Assembly: GCA_052034495.1 (NCBI GenBank) | Contig: JBPOIL010000001.1 | Location: 84,293 to 148,292, forward strand | Direction: 5' to 3' | Length of the DNA: 64,000 nucleotides | From: Patescibacteria group bacterium | Lineage (GTDB): Bacteria > Patescibacteriota > Saccharimonadia > CAILAD01 > JADZBC01 | In this document: piece after piece, positions 20,253-36,378 of the stretch | Layout of the letters: every line of letters begins with the position of its first letter | Numbering within the stretch: the stretch's first letter is position 1 | The notes under the pieces: generated by a model | Database searches by the model: none | The model's input: the letters and a program-made list of their open reading frames with translations, nothing else | What the model was told of the DNA's origin: nothing | Translations under genes and position numbers: made by a program

Positions 20253-21002
20253 CTATTTTTTGCGGACTTTGAAGAAGATGCTTGGACCGAAGTAGAACTT
20301 AGCAAGTGCGGGCTGCAAGATTCTTTCGATTCTGATCATAGTCTTTTCGGGTAAGACCTTTTTAACTCCAGGCGACCGTAGGTTCGATACAGATAGGATC
20401 CTTTCTACTTTGAACCCTGCGGCTTCGAGCTGATCGTTCACGACCTTCGGATGATGGTTCACAAAGGCAATTGACTCGTTTTTAATATTCGATTCGCTAC
20501 GGCGCTCTACCGGTTCTTTGGAGACAGACTTTAGCTTCATGGCAGCCTTAATGCGTGATTTGAAGTGGAGTGAATTGGCTACTTCCAAGATGAGCGTGCC
20601 GTCCTTTTCTAGTACGCGATTAAGCTCTTTAAATGTTGGCTTAGGGTCGGGGAGGTGGTGCATAACGCGAATCATTGTGATGAGGTCGAGTTCAGCATCT
20701 TTGAACGGCAGCTTGTCGCCCTGGCCGTCTTTGAAGTCTACAGACGTAAGTCCCTTGGTAACGTCCTTGCCTCGATCGCGCTGTTGCTTGGATGGCTCAA
20801 CTACCGTTACGTGCTTGGCGTAAGAACGAAGTAGCTTTGCCAATCGTCCAAAGCCGCCACCTACATCGGCCGCATCTTTGTACACCTTCTTGCCCAAGAG
20901 CATATTAAGAGCGAGCTCTTCGGCCGCGTTTTCGTAGTCTCGGCCGTTCCAGTAGTCTACGTAGTTAAAGTTTGGGTCGTCGTATTGGTTGGCTTTCTTC
21001 AT
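20253..21002 (-). CDS. class I SAM-dependent methyltransferase
   Basis: Motif I VADVGGGFGRLA. Confidence 0.7.
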   Translation of the reverse strand: MKKANQYDDPNFNYVDYWNGRDYENAAEELALNMLLGKKVYKDAADVGGGFGRLAKLLRSYAKHVTVVEPSKQQRDRGKDVTKGLTSVDFKDGQGDKLPFKDAELDLITMIRVMHHLPDPKPTFKELNRVLEKDGTLILEVANSLHFKSRIKAAMKLKSVSKEPVERRSESNIKNESIAFVNHHPKVVNDQLEAAGFKVERILSVSNLRSPGVKKVLPEKTMIRIERILQPALAKFYFGPSIFFKVRKK

Positions 21003-21170
21003 AGATTCATTATACCACCTTAGAGCTTAGCGAATACCCAACAAAAAGCATAAGCACTCTTGACAGATAATAAAAAATGATATATAGTTTCAACACTATG
21101 TCAAATAACACACACATTAAGCCGAATGTTGCTCGCGCAATTCTAGGAATGGAAATGCGAGCGGTGCTGC

Positions 21171-21298
21171 GCTAAGTTCTTTTATTATTGGATTCTCTTT
21201 GAACACAGTATGAGCTCGGCGCAGTCCGAGCTCTTTCGTTTTGGCCCAGGTTTCTGGTCGCCTTAACGCTGTGTTCTTTAACAATCCAATAAGTTCTT
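21171..21298. mobile_element. MITE-like element: ~24-bp imperfect terminal inverted repeats (TTATTGGATT..TTGAACACAG / CTGTGTTC..AATCCAATAA) flanked by direct AAGTTCTT repeats, with a GC hairpin terminator inside
   Basis: Inverted repeats at 21185-21208 and 21268-21292. AAGTTCTT at 21175-21181 and 21292-21298. Hairpin gagctcgg-cgcagt-ccgagctc plus T-run at 21213-21245. Confidence 0.3.
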
Positions 21299-21337
21299 CA
21301 ATCTAACCCTAACCAATCCCGACCGAAAGGGGCGCCC

Positions 21338-23128
21338 ATGTTGGGTGCAATCCGTAAACTGTTCGAGCTCGTTGGCCTGATCGCCAAGGAGCCTGGAGGA
21401 GACAAGAAGGTACGACAGGTTAAAAAGGATGCCAAGAAGGCACTCTTTTGGCTGGTCGTTACAGAACTGCTGGAGATCGTTCAGATCTATCCGGTGAAGT
21501 ACTTCGTTGATGGAATCGCCCAGGGCAAGAGTCTCGGCTACCTGCTGAGCATTGTCGGTGTGATGCTGGCCATCGACGTGGTTGTGCGCATTGTTGCCAA
21601 CACGATGAACCATACTCGGCATGTTGCTGCGTGGCATCAGTACGTCATGCTGCTTGGCTTCGGTCAGGCAAAGCAAATGAGCATGGACGTGGCGTGGCAC
21701 CTTGAGCACGGCACAGGCGAAAAGGAATCCTTGATCGCCAAGAACCTCAATCGGATCGACAACTTGACGGATCGAGTCATTTACAACGGCTTGCCCGTGG
21801 TGATTCGGATCGTGTTGACGATTGTGGCTTTGTTCATCTTCGGTCCGGTTTTCGCACTGTTTGGTGTGATTGTGGTTGGGCTGTTCGTGGCTGTCATGGC
21901 CTACAACGGTCGCTACATCAAGCCAATCGACAAGGCCGGCCATCATGCCTGGAAGGACATGCATACTCGCGGGACTGAGCTGTCAGCAAAGTCACGTACT
22001 CTGAAGCAATTCGGGGTCGAAGCGAGCTTTGCGCGGCGCTATCAGTCTGTTCTAGACGGCTATGCCGAAGACGACATTGAACGCAACCGTGCTTGGCGCC
22101 GTTATCAGCGTCGTCCCGAATACGTCCTGATGGCTGCTTTCCTTGGCATGTATGCGTTGCTGGCGCTGTTGCACAACGGAACCGGTGGCGCTGTCACTGT
22201 TGGTACAGTGGTGCTGGTGATTGACTGGTTGAGGCGAATCTTCATCAACCTTTACCAGTTCCGAGATGTGCAGCGAGCCATTTCGGATGGCAGCGAGGCG
22301 CTCAATGAGTACATCGGGCTTTTCAAGACCGTTCCGAGCATTCGACAGCCCGCTACTCCCCAGAAGCCCACTGCGGCAGAGGGGAGGATTGAGCTGCGCT
22401 GCATGGGCTTTACGCATGCTGGTAATTGCGTGCCGACTCTTAAGGAGTTGGATTTGGTCATTGAGCCAAATACCACTATTGCGCTGGTTGGTCCCTCTGG
22501 GGCTGGCAAGTCAACGGTGGCCGCACTGCTGGCACGTGAGGCTGATCCGACCGAAGGGGAGATTCTCTTTGACGGCATTAGCTTGCGGCAGTTTGACTAC
22601 GACTACCTGCGCCAGCAGATGGTTACGGTCGTGTCGCAAGACGTGCAGCTGATCGATGGCAGCATCGCTGACAACATTCGCATGGGCAATGCCCTGGCAA
22701 GTGACGAAGCGGTGCACCAGGCTGCGCAGCGCGCTCATGCAGATGAGTTCATTGCCAGGCTGCCACACGGCTATGCCAGCCAGGTGGGCGAGAATGGCGT
22801 GCGGCTGTCAGGCGGACAGAGGCAGCGCGTGGCGATTGCCCGGGCTCTTCTGCGCAACCCCAAACTGTTGATCCTGGACGAGGCTACGAGCGCGCTCGAT
22901 GCACGCTCGCAAGACTTCGTGAAGGCGACGGTGGACGAGATGATTCAGTCTCGTCAGGCCACCATTGTGGTCATTGCTCACCGCTTGAGCACCGTGGAGT
23001 CGGCCGACGTGGTCTACTACATGGAAGACGGCCGTATTGTTGAGCATGGCGCTCACGCAGAGCTTTTGGCTCAAGGTGGCCGTTACGCCGAGATGGTGGC
23101 GCGTGAGATTGGAGAGCATTTGGACTGA
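21338..23128 (+). CDS. ABC transporter, fused permease/ATP-binding exporter
   Basis: Walker A GPSGAGKST, ABC signature LSGGQRQRVAIARAL, Walker B LLILDEATSALD, N-terminal TM domain. GC clearly above the window average. Confidence 0.85.
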   Translation: MLGAIRKLFELVGLIAKEPGGDKKVRQVKKDAKKALFWLVVTELLEIVQIYPVKYFVDGIAQGKSLGYLLSIVGVMLAIDVVVRIVANTMNHTRHVAAWHQYVMLLGFGQAKQMSMDVAWHLEHGTGEKESLIAKNLNRIDNLTDRVIYNGLPVVIRIVLTIVALFIFGPVFALFGVIVVGLFVAVMAYNGRYIKPIDKAGHHAWKDMHTRGTELSAKSRTLKQFGVEASFARRYQSVLDGYAEDDIERNRAWRRYQRRPEYVLMAAFLGMYALLALLHNGTGGAVTVGTVVLVIDWLRRIFINLYQFRDVQRAISDGSEALNEYIGLFKTVPSIRQPATPQKPTAAEGRIELRCMGFTHAGNCVPTLKELDLVIEPNTTIALVGPSGAGKSTVAALLAREADPTEGEILFDGISLRQFDYDYLRQQMVTVVSQDVQLIDGSIADNIRMGNALASDEAVHQAAQRAHADEFIARLPHGYASQVGENGVRLSGGQRQRVAIARALLRNPKLLILDEATSALDARSQDFVKATVDEMIQSRQATIVVIAHRLSTVESADVVYYMEDGRIVEHGAHAELLAQGGRYAEMVAREIGEHLD

Positions 23129-23317
23129 CATAGAAAGGAGGGTGACGGCGGGACGCGGGTGAATAACCTTGCGCCCCGCCTATCCCAAGTTGATAAGCCG
23201 AGAGGGGCTCTGACGTACTTTATAACGACATAGTAAAGAATTCAGAGTCCCTTCCGGCAGAGCAACAAGGCTCTCCGGCCCGCACGTTGGCGGGTTAGTT
23301 CGAAAGGGCGTACGTGT

Positions 23318-23863
23318 ATGTACGGACCAGTTATTGAAGGGGCAAAGTGCAAGCTTCGGCCTCATGTTGAGAAGGATGCCCATCTGTTCGTGCAGATGTT
23401 GGCCGACCCGGAGGTGAACAGGTACCTCTCGATGCAGTCGCCACCGAGCATCAGGTCTGAGCTGGAGTGGATCGAGGCACGCGCCAAGGATCCGCGGACC
23501 CTCGGCTGGACTATCGAGGTCGAGGGCAAGTGCGTCGGCTACGTTGGCGTAGACGCCATTAATTGGCGCAATGGCCACGGAACGGTTGGCATCTTCATCG
23601 GCCGCTCAGACCTGTGGGGCAAGGGCATCACGACCGAGGTTGCCCAGCTGGTGGCGCGCTATGTGTTCACCCAGACACCTCTGCGCAAGATCAAGGCCGG
23701 CTACCTGGCCCCCAATGTGGCGTCAGCCAAGGCCCAGGCTCGGATTGGCCTACGTGAGGTTGGCCGTTGGCACGCCGAGTATTTCCGCGATGGCCAGTGG
23801 GTCGACCATGTGTTGACCGAGCTGACCCGCGAGGAGTGGGTGGCAGCCCAGCTGAGTCGGTAG
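23318..23863 (+). CDS. GNAT family N-acetyltransferase (RimJ/RimL-like)
   Basis: GWTIEVEGKCVGYVGVDAINWRNGHGTVGIFIG...GKGITTEV. GC-rich. Confidence 0.65.
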   Translation: MYGPVIEGAKCKLRPHVEKDAHLFVQMLADPEVNRYLSMQSPPSIRSELEWIEARAKDPRTLGWTIEVEGKCVGYVGVDAINWRNGHGTVGIFIGRSDLWGKGITTEVAQLVARYVFTQTPLRKIKAGYLAPNVASAKAQARIGLREVGRWHAEYFRDGQWVDHVLTELTREEWVAAQLSR

Positions 23864-29470: not shown

Positions 29471-29546
29471 GGGCCCGTAGCTCAGTGGTTAGAGCAGTCG
29501 GCTCATAACCGATTGGTCGCTGGTTCAAATCCAGCCGGGCCCACCA
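29471..29546 (+). tRNA. tRNA with CAT anticodon; sequence closely resembles E. coli tRNA-Ile2 (lysidine; ileX) rather than tRNA-Met
   Basis: GGGCCCGTAGCTCAGTGGTTAGAGCAGTCGGCTCATAACCGATTGGTCGCTGGTTCAAATCCAGCCGGGCCCACCA. Cloverleaf with anticodon loop CTCATAA. Encoded CCA. Confidence 0.85.
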
Positions 29547-36159: not shown

Positions 36160-36236
<77 letters not shown>

Positions 36237-36301: not shown

Positions 36302-36378
36302 GGCTGAGTAGCTCAGTTGGTTAGAGCGCGGGACTCATAAGCCCGAGGTCGGTGGTTCAATCCCACCCTCAGCCACCA
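36302..36378 (+). tRNA. elongator tRNA-Met (CAT)
   Basis: GGCTGAGTAGCTCAGTTGGTTAGAGCGCGGGACTCATAAGCCCGAGGTCGGTGGTTCAATCCCACCCTCAGCCACCA, similar to E. coli metT. Confidence 0.85.

What the first reader, a model, noticed from the sequence alone, without database searches (positions are those of the whole stretch)
21171..21298. MITE-like inverted-repeat element with internal terminator at the left border of a GC-elevated block
Terminal inverted repeats of about 24 bp (TTATTGGATTctctTTGAACACAG ... CTGTGTTCtttaacAATCCAATAA) enclose a perfect GC hairpin plus T-run. AAGTTCTT occurs as a direct repeat just outside both ends, which looks like a target-site duplication. The element lies exactly where composition shifts upward into the ABC-exporter/GNAT block. 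Alternatively it may be a structured regulatory leader (terminator/antiterminator) for the ABC exporter.
Basis: seen in the sequence. Interest (0 to 1): 0.5.

Follow-up and report, generated by a model that had tools for sequence, protein, structure and literature searches.

The report
Leader-peptide attenuator of ABC exporter
The supposed mobile element is part of a conserved, single-copy RNA control region in front of an ABC exporter gene of Saccharibacteria, apparently a switch that uses translation of a tiny upstream reading frame to decide whether the exporter gets transcribed.

Summary
The sequence features are real: a 24-nt inverted repeat, a GC hairpin with a T-run, and a 9-nt direct repeat. 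The MITE reading fails.

- **Copy number:** the element is single-copy in the window. It occurs once per genome in six Saccharibacteria genomes.
- **Position:** it always lies directly upstream of the same ABC exporter gene, in all 17 distinct orthologous leaders (ABC protein identity 53-95%), even where the upstream neighbour differs.
- **Structure:** the "terminal inverted repeats" are RNA helices P1/P2. They keep pairing through compensatory and G-U changes, and score far better on the + strand.
- **"Target-site duplication":** it is not flush with the repeat, and its right copy is not conserved.

The whole ~240-nt leader is conserved. It holds a sigma-70 promoter, a nearly leaderless 25-codon upstream ORF, a covarying hairpin inside that ORF, the GC hairpin P3 and a start-codon hairpin. 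P3 is an intrinsic terminator in the window's clade.

The last uORF codons, including the stop codon, can form a 13-bp alternative helix with the 5' strand and loop of P3. This helix also covaries and excludes the terminator.

Best reading: a trp/BmrB-type ribosome-mediated transcription attenuator, absent from Rfam. Translation of the uORF and the inducing signal are untested. A sister clade lacks the U-tract, so its output is unresolved.

The parts
21060..21088 (+). Sigma-70-type promoter of the leader: TTGACA, 17-nt spacer, TATAGT. The transcription start is inferred near 21095.
   Evidence: Matches 11 of 12 consensus positions. The -35 and -10 boxes are invariant or nearly so in all orthologous leaders. 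The start site is inferred, not mapped.
21098..21175 (+). Upstream ORF (leader peptide): ATG 21098, 25 codons (MSNNTHIKPNVARAILGMEMRAVLR), stop TAA 21173-21175. It has no Shine-Dalgarno sequence; the ATG lies 9 nt after the -10 box, so it would be translated as a (nearly) leaderless message.
   Evidence: CACTATG is invariant. The frame is open for 23-28 codons in 17 of 17 leaders, while only 4 of 34 off-frames stay open that long. Ser2 uses TCA, TCG, TCT and AGT, and Pro uses CCG, CCA and CCT. Leaderless-type promoters look common in this window. Translation itself is untested.
21121..21165 (+). Hp1: a hairpin inside the uORF with a basal helix GCCNN:NNGGU. It ends at the GGU of the invariant GGUGCUG.
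   Evidence: RNAalifold predicts it on the full and on the nascent leader. Most pairs show compensatory changes: helix 1 has 7 of 8 pairs changed on both sides and 92% of cells paired.
21166..21179 (+). 5' strand of the antiterminator helix (GCUGCGCUAAGUUC). It covers the last uORF codons and includes the stop codon.
   Evidence: It pairs with 21212-21225. The duplex energy is -18.5 kcal/mol here and -14.6 to -18.8 in all 15 leaders. 90.7% of cells are paired against 23-52% in slid controls, and three pairs show compensatory changes. RNAalifold predicts it independently on the nascent transcript.
21185..21209 (+). 5' strands of P1 (21185-21194) and P2 (21201-21209), separated by an internal loop with invariant UUCU.
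   Evidence: In P1, 5 of 12 pairs changed on both sides. In P2, 99% of cells are paired.
21212..21243 (+). P3: GC hairpin (21212-21219 / 21226-21233, loop CGCAGU) plus U-tract 21234-21243, forming an intrinsic terminator. Its 5' strand and loop (21212-21225) are the 3' strand of the antiterminator helix.
   Evidence: The terminator scan flags it. The hairpin is conserved in all leaders. The U-tract is present in all 11 clade-A leaders (weak in L005) and absent in clade B.
21238..21267 (+). P4: a variable hairpin that closes the three-way junction.
   Evidence: Its sequence and length differ in every lineage, and it is absent in L007. It is hairpin-forming in the MFE folds shown.
21268..21292 (+). 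3' strands of P2 (21268-21276) and P1 (21283-21292), with the invariant loop GUUCYUUnAnAA.
21325..21348 (+). Ribosome-binding region of the ABC exporter: SD GAAAGGGG 21325-21332, ATG 21338, and a local hairpin GCGCCCA (21332-21338) / UGGGUGC (21342-21348) that encloses the start codon.
   Evidence: A local fold of -10 to -15 kcal/mol appears in all orthologs. The Gly codon GGU is invariant in 17 of 17. The distant ortholog L028 keeps a start-codon hairpin with a different sequence. RNAalifold also proposes an alternative long-range pairing of 21163-21168 with 21331-21336.
21338..23128 (+). The regulated gene: a fused permease/ATPase ABC exporter of the ABCB/MsbA/Sav1866 type. A GNAT acetyltransferase gene follows at 23318-23863.
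   Evidence: Pfam ABC_membrane plus ABC_tran, and Acetyltransf_3. PDB and NCBIfam comparisons give only generic exporter matches.

Best explanation
The finding is the core of a ~240-nt cis-regulatory 5' leader of an ABC-exporter(-GNAT) operon in a Saccharibacteria (class Saccharimonadia) genome. It works as a ribosome-mediated, leader-peptide transcription attenuator.

Anatomy (shown). A sigma-70 promoter is followed almost at once by a 25-codon ORF. The end of that ORF, including its stop codon, is complementary to the 5' strand and loop of the GC hairpin P3. P3 with its U-tract is an intrinsic terminator. The two pairings exclude each other.

Proposed mechanism (inferred).
1. A ribosome that translates the short ORF quickly reaches the stop codon while RNA polymerase is still transcribing P3. 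It covers the antiterminator strand, so P3 forms and transcription stops. The exporter is OFF.
2. If the ribosome is slowed or stalled earlier in the ORF, it also melts hairpin Hp1. The antiterminator strand is then free and pairs with the emerging P3 5' strand. The terminator cannot form and the exporter is transcribed. The exporter is ON.
3. The likely stalling signals are ribosome-targeting antibiotics or general translation stress.

Their 3' strands are made only after the termination decision. They then lock read-through transcripts into the thermodynamically favoured three-way junction. A start-codon hairpin adds a translational brake.

Shown: conservation, single-copy status, all helices, the alternative helix, the ORF and its position. 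Inferred: the start site, translation of the ORF, the direction of the response and the inducer.
For: - **Position and copy number.** The same leader lies directly upstream of the ABC ortholog in all 17 distinct orthologous leaders recovered (53-95% protein identity). This includes loci whose upstream gene differs. There is one hit per genome in six Saccharibacteria genomes. The covariance model finds one copy in the 64-kb window and one per locus across 297 kb.
- **Ground-state structure.** Hp1, P1, P2 and P3 have 96% of cells paired against 37-45% in slid controls. The covariation score is 0.36 against 0.10 or less, and 14 pairs show double changes.
- **Alternative helix.** The duplex is -14.6 to -18.8 kcal/mol in all 15 leaders, at least as stable as P3 itself at -9.2 to -14.3. 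It has 90.7% of cells paired against 23-52% in slid controls, with GC-to-AU/UA compensation at three pairs. RNAalifold predicts it on transcripts truncated before the P3 3' strand. In single-sequence folds of the nascent RNA, P3's 5' strand pairs with this segment in all 15 leaders. That pairing is lost when a ribosome footprint is placed on the stop codon.
- **Upstream ORF.** The ATG next to the promoter is invariant. The frame is open in 17 of 17 leaders despite frame-shifting indels between clades. The stop codon lies inside the antiterminator strand or within about 7 nt after it. Ser and Pro codons vary synonymously.
- **Terminator.** It is flagged by the scan. The U-tract is kept in all 11 clade-A leaders, weakly in L005.
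- **Precedent.** The B. subtilis bmrB leader controls the BmrCD multidrug ABC exporter by exactly this logic (PMC4191407, read).
- **Leaderless translation is plausible here.** About a quarter of long ORFs in the window have a -10 box 6-10 nt before the ATG and no Shine-Dalgarno sequence.
Against: - There are no expression data. The start site, translation of the ORF and termination at P3 are all inferred.
- The peptide is weakly conserved. Substitutions are not concentrated at third codon positions. Several invariant nucleotide blocks (AGCC, GGUGCUG) are read in different frames in different clades, so most of the conservation is at the RNA level.
- The sister clade (L007, L008, L009, L011, L013) keeps the ORF, the alternative helix and P1-P3 but has no U-tract after P3. 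Intrinsic termination cannot be its output there, and modelling of RBS accessibility gave no consistent alternative.
- The attenuator model does not explain the strong conservation of the P1/P2 internal loops (UUCU and GUUCYUUnAnAA).
- There is 9 nt between the -10 box and the ATG, slightly long for a strictly leaderless mRNA.
Confidence: 0.55

Rival explanations
1. The same terminator/antiterminator switch exists, but it is set by a small-molecule ligand (riboswitch) or an RNA-binding protein rather than by the ribosome. The effector would bind either Hp1 with its invariant base, or the P1-P2-P3 three-way junction with its invariant internal loops. The short ORF would be incidental.
For: Conservation is mainly at the nucleotide level and crosses reading frames. 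The junction has invariant internal-loop nucleotides flanked by covarying stems, as aptamers do. The element persists in a clade with no terminator, as riboswitches do when they change expression platform. A possible anti-SD covariation (loop Y with an SD purine) and a long-range GGUGCU:RGCRCC pairing with the RBS suggest a translational platform.
Against: - No Rfam family matches, even at E up to 10.
- The motif is tied to a single gene family, so nothing hints at a ligand.
- This reading does not explain the invariant ATG at the transcript's 5' end, the frame kept open in 17 of 17 leaders against 4 of 34 off-frames, or the fixed position of the stop codon next to the antiterminator strand.
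- P1 and P2 3' strands are transcribed after the terminator, so the junction cannot inform a termination decision in the window's clade.
- Hp1's stem and loop vary freely.
Confidence: 0.25
2. It is a miniature inverted-repeat transposable element that inserted next to an acquired ABC/GNAT island, with TAAGTTCTT as its target-site duplication.
For: There is a 24-nt imperfect inverted repeat and a 9-nt direct repeat near both ends. The ABC and GNAT genes have higher GC than their surroundings.
Against: - It is single-copy in the window and in the fetched loci, with one hit per genome in six related genomes.
- It sits at the orthologous position in species whose ABC proteins are only 53-65% identical, including loci with different upstream genes.
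- The arms change by compensatory and G-U substitutions, and the model score is strongly strand-asymmetric.
- The repeat is not flush with the arms, and the right copy is not conserved in the orthologs.
- There are no hits in plasmids, phages or viral contigs.
- The GC excess is shared by all relatives.
Confidence: 0.02
3. The short ORF encodes a functional small peptide, for example an exported signal or bacteriocin-like substrate of the downstream ABC exporter, and the structures are ordinary mRNA features.
For: The ORF is always present and sits immediately upstream of an exporter gene.
Against: - Apart from the N-terminal MS..T and QP/TP residues, the peptide is poorly conserved, and it shifts frame between clades.
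- Pfam reports only ABC_membrane and ABC_tran on the exporter, with no peptidase domain.
- A terminator lies between the ORF and the exporter gene.
- This reading does not explain the covarying alternative helix.
Confidence: 0.03
4. The region up to the P3 terminator is an independent small RNA of about 145 nt that acts in trans, and the ABC exporter has its own regulation.
For: A strong promoter is followed by a terminator about 145 nt downstream. Attenuator-derived small RNAs are known: rnTrpL, title and abstract of PMC6614838 as listed.
Against: No second promoter is detected between P3 and the ABC gene. Conservation and pairing continue through P4, P2/P1 3' strands and the RBS. The element always travels with the ABC gene. 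This role could coexist with attenuation.
Confidence: 0.08

Closest known systems
bmrB leader of the bmrBCD operon, Bacillus subtilis (ribosome-mediated transcriptional attenuation of a multidrug ABC exporter; PMC4191407)
   Same: A short leader ORF lies upstream of an ABCB-type exporter, together with an intrinsic terminator and a mutually exclusive antiterminator. Efficient translation of the leader prevents the antiterminator and causes termination. Slowed translation (lincomycin, erythromycin, chloramphenicol) gives read-through.
   Different: - bmrB is 162 nt, has its own 5'-UTR, and contains the terminator inside its coding region. Here the ORF is 25 codons, has no Shine-Dalgarno sequence or leader, and ends about 37 nt before the terminator hairpin.
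- Here the terminator is nested inside a long-range P1/P2 helix, forming a three-way junction.
- No sequence similarity was detected.
- The host phylum differs (Patescibacteria/Saccharibacteria).
- Nothing here has been tested experimentally.
trp-type amino-acid operon attenuators (E. coli trpL and relatives)
   Same: Ribosome position on a leader ORF selects between antiterminator and terminator pairings. A hairpin upstream of the antiterminator strand is melted by the ribosome.
   Different: The leader peptide has no run of regulatory codons, so it does not look like an amino-acid sensor. The regulated gene is an exporter, not a biosynthetic operon. (Comparison from general knowledge and the discussion in PMC4191407.)
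ermC / cat-86 type translational attenuation leaders
   Same: A leader peptide acts as a sensor of ribosome-targeting drugs, and the start region of the regulated gene sits in a hairpin (PMC4191407 discussion).
   Different: In ermC the rearrangement directly frees the RBS. Here folding calculations show no consistent change in RBS accessibility between the two conformations. The window's clade has a transcription terminator instead.
Metabolite riboswitches with three-way junction aptamers
   Same: Covarying stems surround invariant junction and internal-loop nucleotides in a 5' leader. The expression platform differs between clades.
   Different: No Rfam family matches. The junction's 3' half is transcribed after the terminator. 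A conserved ORF overlaps the switch.
MITEs
   Same: An imperfect inverted repeat of about 24 nt encloses about 60 nt, with a short direct repeat nearby.
   Different: It is single-copy, orthologously conserved, strand-specific and shows RNA-type covariation. It has no flush target-site duplication.

Membership tests
MITE (miniature inverted-repeat transposable element) | Terminal inverted repeats | tested here: met
   24-nt arms, 79% complementary. However, they behave as RNA helices: compensatory and G-U changes, and 122 bits on the + strand against 33 on the - strand.
MITE (miniature inverted-repeat transposable element) | Target-site duplication directly flanking the terminal repeats | tested here: not met
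   The left copy of TAAGTTCTT ends 3 nt before the repeat and the right copy overlaps its last 3 nt. The left copy is the antiterminator strand and uORF stop codon. The right copy is not conserved in the orthologs.
MITE (miniature inverted-repeat transposable element) | Many dispersed copies with different flanks in one genome | tested here: not met
   One copy in the 64-kb window. One match per genome in six Saccharibacteria species representatives, always next to the ABC gene. The complete source genome was not available.
MITE (miniature inverted-repeat transposable element) | Presence/absence polymorphism between related genomes, rather than orthologous conservation | tested here: not met
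   Present at the same place in all 17 distinct orthologous leaders with 53-95% ABC identity.
Leader-peptide (ribosome-mediated) transcription attenuator | Short ORF with a usable start in the leader, conserved as an ORF | tested here: met
   The ATG is invariant and lies 9 nt after the -10 box. The frame is open for 23-28 codons in 17 of 17 leaders against 4 of 34 off-frames. Ser and Pro codons vary synonymously. Leaderless-type starts are common in the window.
Leader-peptide (ribosome-mediated) transcription attenuator | Intrinsic terminator between the leader ORF and the regulated gene | tested here: met
   The stem is 8 bp with 6 GC pairs and is followed by UUUCGUUUUG. This holds in the 11 clade-A leaders, with a weak U-tract in L005. 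It does not hold in clade B, where there is no U-tract.
Leader-peptide (ribosome-mediated) transcription attenuator | Antiterminator pairing that is mutually exclusive with the terminator | tested here: met
   21166-21179 pairs with 21212-21225. The duplex is -14.6 to -18.8 kcal/mol in all 15 leaders, it covaries, and RNAalifold predicts it on the nascent RNA.
Leader-peptide (ribosome-mediated) transcription attenuator | The ORF overlaps the switching segments, so ribosome position decides the fold | tested here: met
   The stop codon lies inside the antiterminator 5' strand or within about 7 nt after it in every leader. Masking a ribosome footprint at the stop codon abolishes the pairing in silico.
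Leader-peptide (ribosome-mediated) transcription attenuator | The ORF is translated, and read-through responds to translation rate or inhibitors | not testable with these tools
   This needs reporter fusions, ribosome profiling or in vitro transcription-translation.
Riboswitch (any Rfam family) | Match to a curated covariance model | tested here: not met
   No family reaches its gathering score in the window other than four tRNAs. In the leader, only chance-level hits appear: PsrR1 18 bits against a threshold of 42, and rliG and CrcZ far below threshold.
Riboswitch (novel class) | Conserved ligand-binding aptamer whose folding precedes and controls the expression platform | tested here: inconclusive
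   The three-way junction has invariant loops, but its 3' half is made after the terminator. Hp1 is variable.

The most novel reading that the evidence does not exclude
The P1-P2-P3 three-way junction, with its invariant internal-loop nucleotides, is a ligand- or protein-binding sensor of its own. It would be layered on the leader-peptide attenuator. The leader would then integrate two inputs, ribosome speed and a second effector such as the exporter's substrate. In the clade without a terminator, it would control translation through the GGUGCU:RGCRCC or anti-SD pairings. This would be a new riboswitch-like class specific to Saccharibacteria.
Probability: 0.15. Interest if true: 0.7.

Novelty: new member of a known kind. 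Interest (0 to 1): 0.42.

Why it matters
Gene regulation in Patescibacteria/CPR bacteria has been little characterised, and my literature searches found no description of this element. These are tiny-genome episymbionts with very few regulators.

This element would be a clear, comparatively supported case of RNA-based, translation-sensing control in Saccharibacteria. It also appears to use a leaderless upstream ORF. It points to an inducible ABC exporter plus acetyltransferase cassette, possibly a drug-response module. That would be relevant for organisms that live attached to antibiotic-producing Actinobacteria.

It also gives a defined, small set of mutations that could be tested in the Saccharibacteria strains that are now genetically tractable, or in a heterologous reporter.

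For annotation, it is a warning. Inverted repeats enclosing a hairpin in a 5' leader are easily mistaken for MITEs.

Tried and rejected
- **Rfam.** The whole window at gathering threshold gave only four tRNAs. The leader at E up to 10 gave nothing credible.
- **Mobile-element collections.** BLAST of the leader against plasmids and phages, and a pattern scan of viral contigs, gave no matches.
- **Metagenome pattern scan.** It returned only six chance hits in GC-rich coding DNA and no further leaders.
- **Genome pattern scan.** Eight of the 14 hits, from other phyla, had no ABC ortholog nearby and were treated as chance.
- **More distant ABC orthologs.**
  - L026 (40% identity) has a 120-nt spacer and no motif.
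  - L028 (36% identity, AT-rich) has a 330-nt spacer that looks by eye like a degenerate version. The covariance model does not detect it significantly (8.3 bits), so it was not counted.
  - P0025 gave no DNA.
- **Classical 2:3 antiterminator.** I looked for pairing between the Hp1 3' strand (CGAGC) and the P3 5' strand. It exists only in the window's subclade and is not conserved, so I rejected it in favour of the GCUG...:P3 helix.
- **Competing upstream copies.** I considered upstream same-sense copies (AACAC, GCUCRG) competing for the P2 and P3 3' strands. AACAC does not covary with P2. GCUCRG covaries in only one event. I did not pursue this.
- **RBS accessibility modelling.** I modelled it with ribosome masks and with each conformation forced. 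There was no consistent difference. A translational output, including the alifold-predicted GGUGCU:RGCRCC helix and a possible anti-SD (GUUCYUU), therefore stays unproven.
- **Codon-position test on the uORF.** It showed no third-position excess. The peptide sequence as a whole is therefore not under strong selection.

Full report
**1. The observation**

The inverted repeat is real. Its arms are 21185-21208 and 21269-21292, 24 nt long and 79% complementary. It encloses a perfect 8-bp GC hairpin (21212-21219 / 21226-21233) followed by TTTCGTTTTG, which the terminator scan flags. TAAGTTCTT occurs at 21173-21181 and 21290-21298. The 128-nt stretch folds at -47.7 kcal/mol, with z = -6.3 against shuffles.

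- The direct repeat is not flush with the inverted repeat. The left copy is 3 nt outside it and the right copy overlaps it by 3 nt. Exact repeats of 8-9 nt are common in this 700-nt region.
- GC does not jump at the element. The intergenic region is AT-rich (GC 0.42). GC rises gradually through the ABC gene and stays high in the GNAT gene.

**2. Context**

The element lies in the 335-nt spacer between a methyltransferase gene on the - strand (20253-21002) and a fused ABC exporter gene on the + strand (21338-23128). A GNAT acetyltransferase gene follows the exporter. A near-consensus sigma-70 promoter (TTGACA, 17 nt, TATAGT; 21060-21088) points into the element. Rfam finds only four tRNAs in the window and nothing credible in the leader.

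**3. Relatives**

Orthologs of the exporter at 53-91% identity were found only in metagenomes and MAGs. I fetched their contigs.

- Every one has a spacer of about 280-430 nt with the same promoter and the same leader.
- This includes L007, L008 and L011, where the upstream gene is different (PP2C phosphatase, a hypothetical gene, a Pif1 helicase).
- A degenerate pattern from the conserved core found 14 places among species-representative genomes. Six are Candidatus Saccharibacteria/Saccharimonadia MAGs, with one hit each, and each hit lies directly upstream of the ABC ortholog. The other eight, from other phyla, have no ABC ortholog nearby and are chance-level.
- The same pattern found nothing in viral contigs and only chance hits in metagenome contigs.
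- BLAST found nothing in plasmids or phages.
- A covariance model of the core finds exactly one copy in the window (21163-21293, 122 bits) and one in each locus across 297 kb. The reverse strand scores only 33 bits.
- The GC excess of the ABC and GNAT genes is present in all relatives. It is therefore an old property, not a recent island border.

**4. Ground-state structure**

RNAalifold on 15 distinct leaders predicts four helices:
- Hp1, a hairpin inside the 5' part of the leader.
- P3, the GC hairpin.

A variable hairpin, P4, completes a three-way junction.

On this structure 96% of cells are paired, against 37-45% when partners are slid. The covariation score is 0.36 against 0.10 or less, and 14 pairs show double changes (core only). 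G-U pairs and the strand asymmetry of the model show that the constraint acts on the + strand RNA.

**5. An upstream ORF**

CACTATG is invariant and lies just after the -10 box. From this ATG (21098) the frame is open for 23-28 codons in all 17 leaders. The other two frames stay open that long in only 4 of 34 cases. The frame remains open although indels shift it between clades.

- Codon 2 is Ser, encoded as TCA, TCG, TCT or AGT.
- A conserved Pro is encoded as CCG, CCA or CCT.
- Overall the peptide is weakly conserved and shows no third-position excess. What seems to be selected is translation of the frame and the place where it ends, not the peptide.
- There is no Shine-Dalgarno sequence. 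The ATG would be at or within 3 nt of the 5' end.
- A rough scan suggests that leaderless mRNAs are common in this genome. 12 of 46 long ORFs have a -10-like box 6-10 nt before the ATG, including three perfect TATAAT boxes.

**6. The alternative helix**

I folded the nascent transcript up to the P3 loop. In all 15 leaders the 5' strand of P3 pairs with the segment just after the invariant GGUGCUG. Written out for the window:
- 21167-21173 pairs with 21218-21224.
- 21175-21179 pairs with 21212-21216.

This is 12 pairs with one mismatch, at -18.5 kcal/mol. The equivalent duplex is -14.6 to -18.8 kcal/mol in every leader. That is at least as stable as P3 itself, at -9.2 to -14.3.

On the alignment, 90.7% of cells are paired against 23-52% for slid partners. 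Three pairs show GC-to-AU/UA compensation. RNAalifold finds the helix independently on truncated transcripts. It also finds a covarying basal helix of Hp1 (GCCNN:NNGGU) stacked on it. This explains the invariance of GGUGCUG and of the AGU in the P3 loop.

The helix uses the 5' strand and loop of P3, so it excludes P3.

The 5' strand of this helix is the end of the upstream ORF. In the window the stop codon TAA (21173-21175) lies inside it. In the other leaders the stop is at most about 7 nt downstream of it.

**7. Mechanism**

These parts make a classical ribosome-mediated attenuator.

1. A ribosome that reaches the end of the short ORF covers the antiterminator strand. P3 and its U-tract then form and transcription stops.
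2. A ribosome held up earlier in the ORF leaves that strand free and also melts Hp1. The strand pairs with the emerging P3 5' strand and transcription continues into the exporter gene.

This is the logic shown experimentally for bmrB and the BmrCD multidrug ABC exporter of B. subtilis. There, efficient translation of the leader prevents the antiterminator, and lincomycin, erythromycin or chloramphenicol induce read-through (PMC4191407).

The full-length RNA is 5-21 kcal/mol more stable in the P1-P2-P3 conformation than with the alternative helix forced. The alternative helix would therefore be a co-transcriptional, kinetic state. P1 and P2 form only after the decision.

The exporter's start codon sits in a conserved local hairpin (GCRCCCA / UGGGUGC). 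The Gly codon GGU in it is invariant in 17 of 17 leaders, and the distant L028 keeps a start-codon hairpin with a different sequence.

**8. What does not fit**

- Clade B (L007, L008, L009, L011, L013) keeps the ORF, the alternative helix and P1-P3 but has no U-tract after P3. The output there must be something else.
- RNAalifold proposes a long-range pairing of GGUGCU with the RBS spacer RGCRCC. All 15 leaders are compatible, but the variation is one-sided only.
- The loop base Y in GUUCYUU changes together with an SD purine in two lineages.
- Modelling of RBS accessibility gave no consistent effect.
- The invariant internal loops of P1/P2 are unexplained. They keep open a riboswitch-like or protein-binding role.
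- More distant ABC orthologs either lack the leader (L026) or have something the model does not recognise (L028).

**9. Comparison and novelty**

The element works like bmrB, trp and erm-type leader-peptide attenuators, and it meets the features of that class that can be tested computationally. It differs in four ways:
- The ORF is leaderless and very short.
- The terminator lies downstream of the ORF.
- The terminator is nested in a long-range helix.
- It occurs in Saccharibacteria.

It matches no Rfam family. Two literature searches for riboswitches or attenuation in Saccharibacteria found nothing relevant.

I classify it as a new member of a known kind. The MITE interpretation is rejected.

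Noticed in passing
window 21000-21014 (- strand) and about 11 other gene starts, e.g. 23953(+), 36445(+), 39668(+), 56420(-): Many long ORFs have a -10-like box (several are perfect TATAAT, some with an extended TGn) 6-10 nt upstream of the ATG and no Shine-Dalgarno sequence. An example is the methyltransferase gene: TGGTATAAT-GAATCT-ATG. Leaderless mRNAs may be common in this Saccharimonadia genome (12 of 46 ORFs).
   Followed up: partly
window 21338-23863; L001-L008: The ABC exporter and GNAT genes have clearly higher GC (0.56 and 0.62) than the genome (0.49). The same excess is seen in every relative, including one with 0.41 background GC. It may reflect an ancient transfer or composition bias. 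It is not a recent island.
   Followed up: partly
window 21332-21348: The exporter's start codon is enclosed in a conserved hairpin (GCGCCCA-UGU-UGGGUGC). The Gly codon GGU is invariant in 17 of 17 orthologs. L028 keeps a start-codon hairpin with a different sequence.
   Followed up: partly
window 21173, 21290 (+); 24538, 48924, 55058, 57146 (-): The 9-mer TAAGTTCTT occurs 6 times in the window against 0.59 expected. The four copies outside the leader are on the - strand. This is unexplained; it may be a codon-usage effect.
   Followed up: no
window 29471-29546, 36160-36236, 36302-36378: Three tRNA-Met (CAT) genes lie within 7 kb, two of them only 66 nt apart. These are presumably initiator, elongator and possibly tRNA-Ile2-type genes.
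   Followed up: no
proteins P0008, P0009: Two JGI contigs carry a 99% identical ABC protein that was called at only 410-420 aa (70% coverage). This suggests a frameshift or a different start call in what is probably the same species as the window.
   Followed up: no
L003 3741-4745: One relative has a CNNM/CBS-domain gene inserted between the RNase T-like gene and the DUF4870 gene. The block is otherwise syntenic.
   Followed up: no
window 21077-21104 (- strand): A second near-consensus promoter (TTGACA, 16 nt, TATCAT) points the other way from inside the same spacer. Its -35 box overlaps the start of the upstream ORF. The two divergent promoters overlap, so they could interfere with each other.
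   Followed up: no
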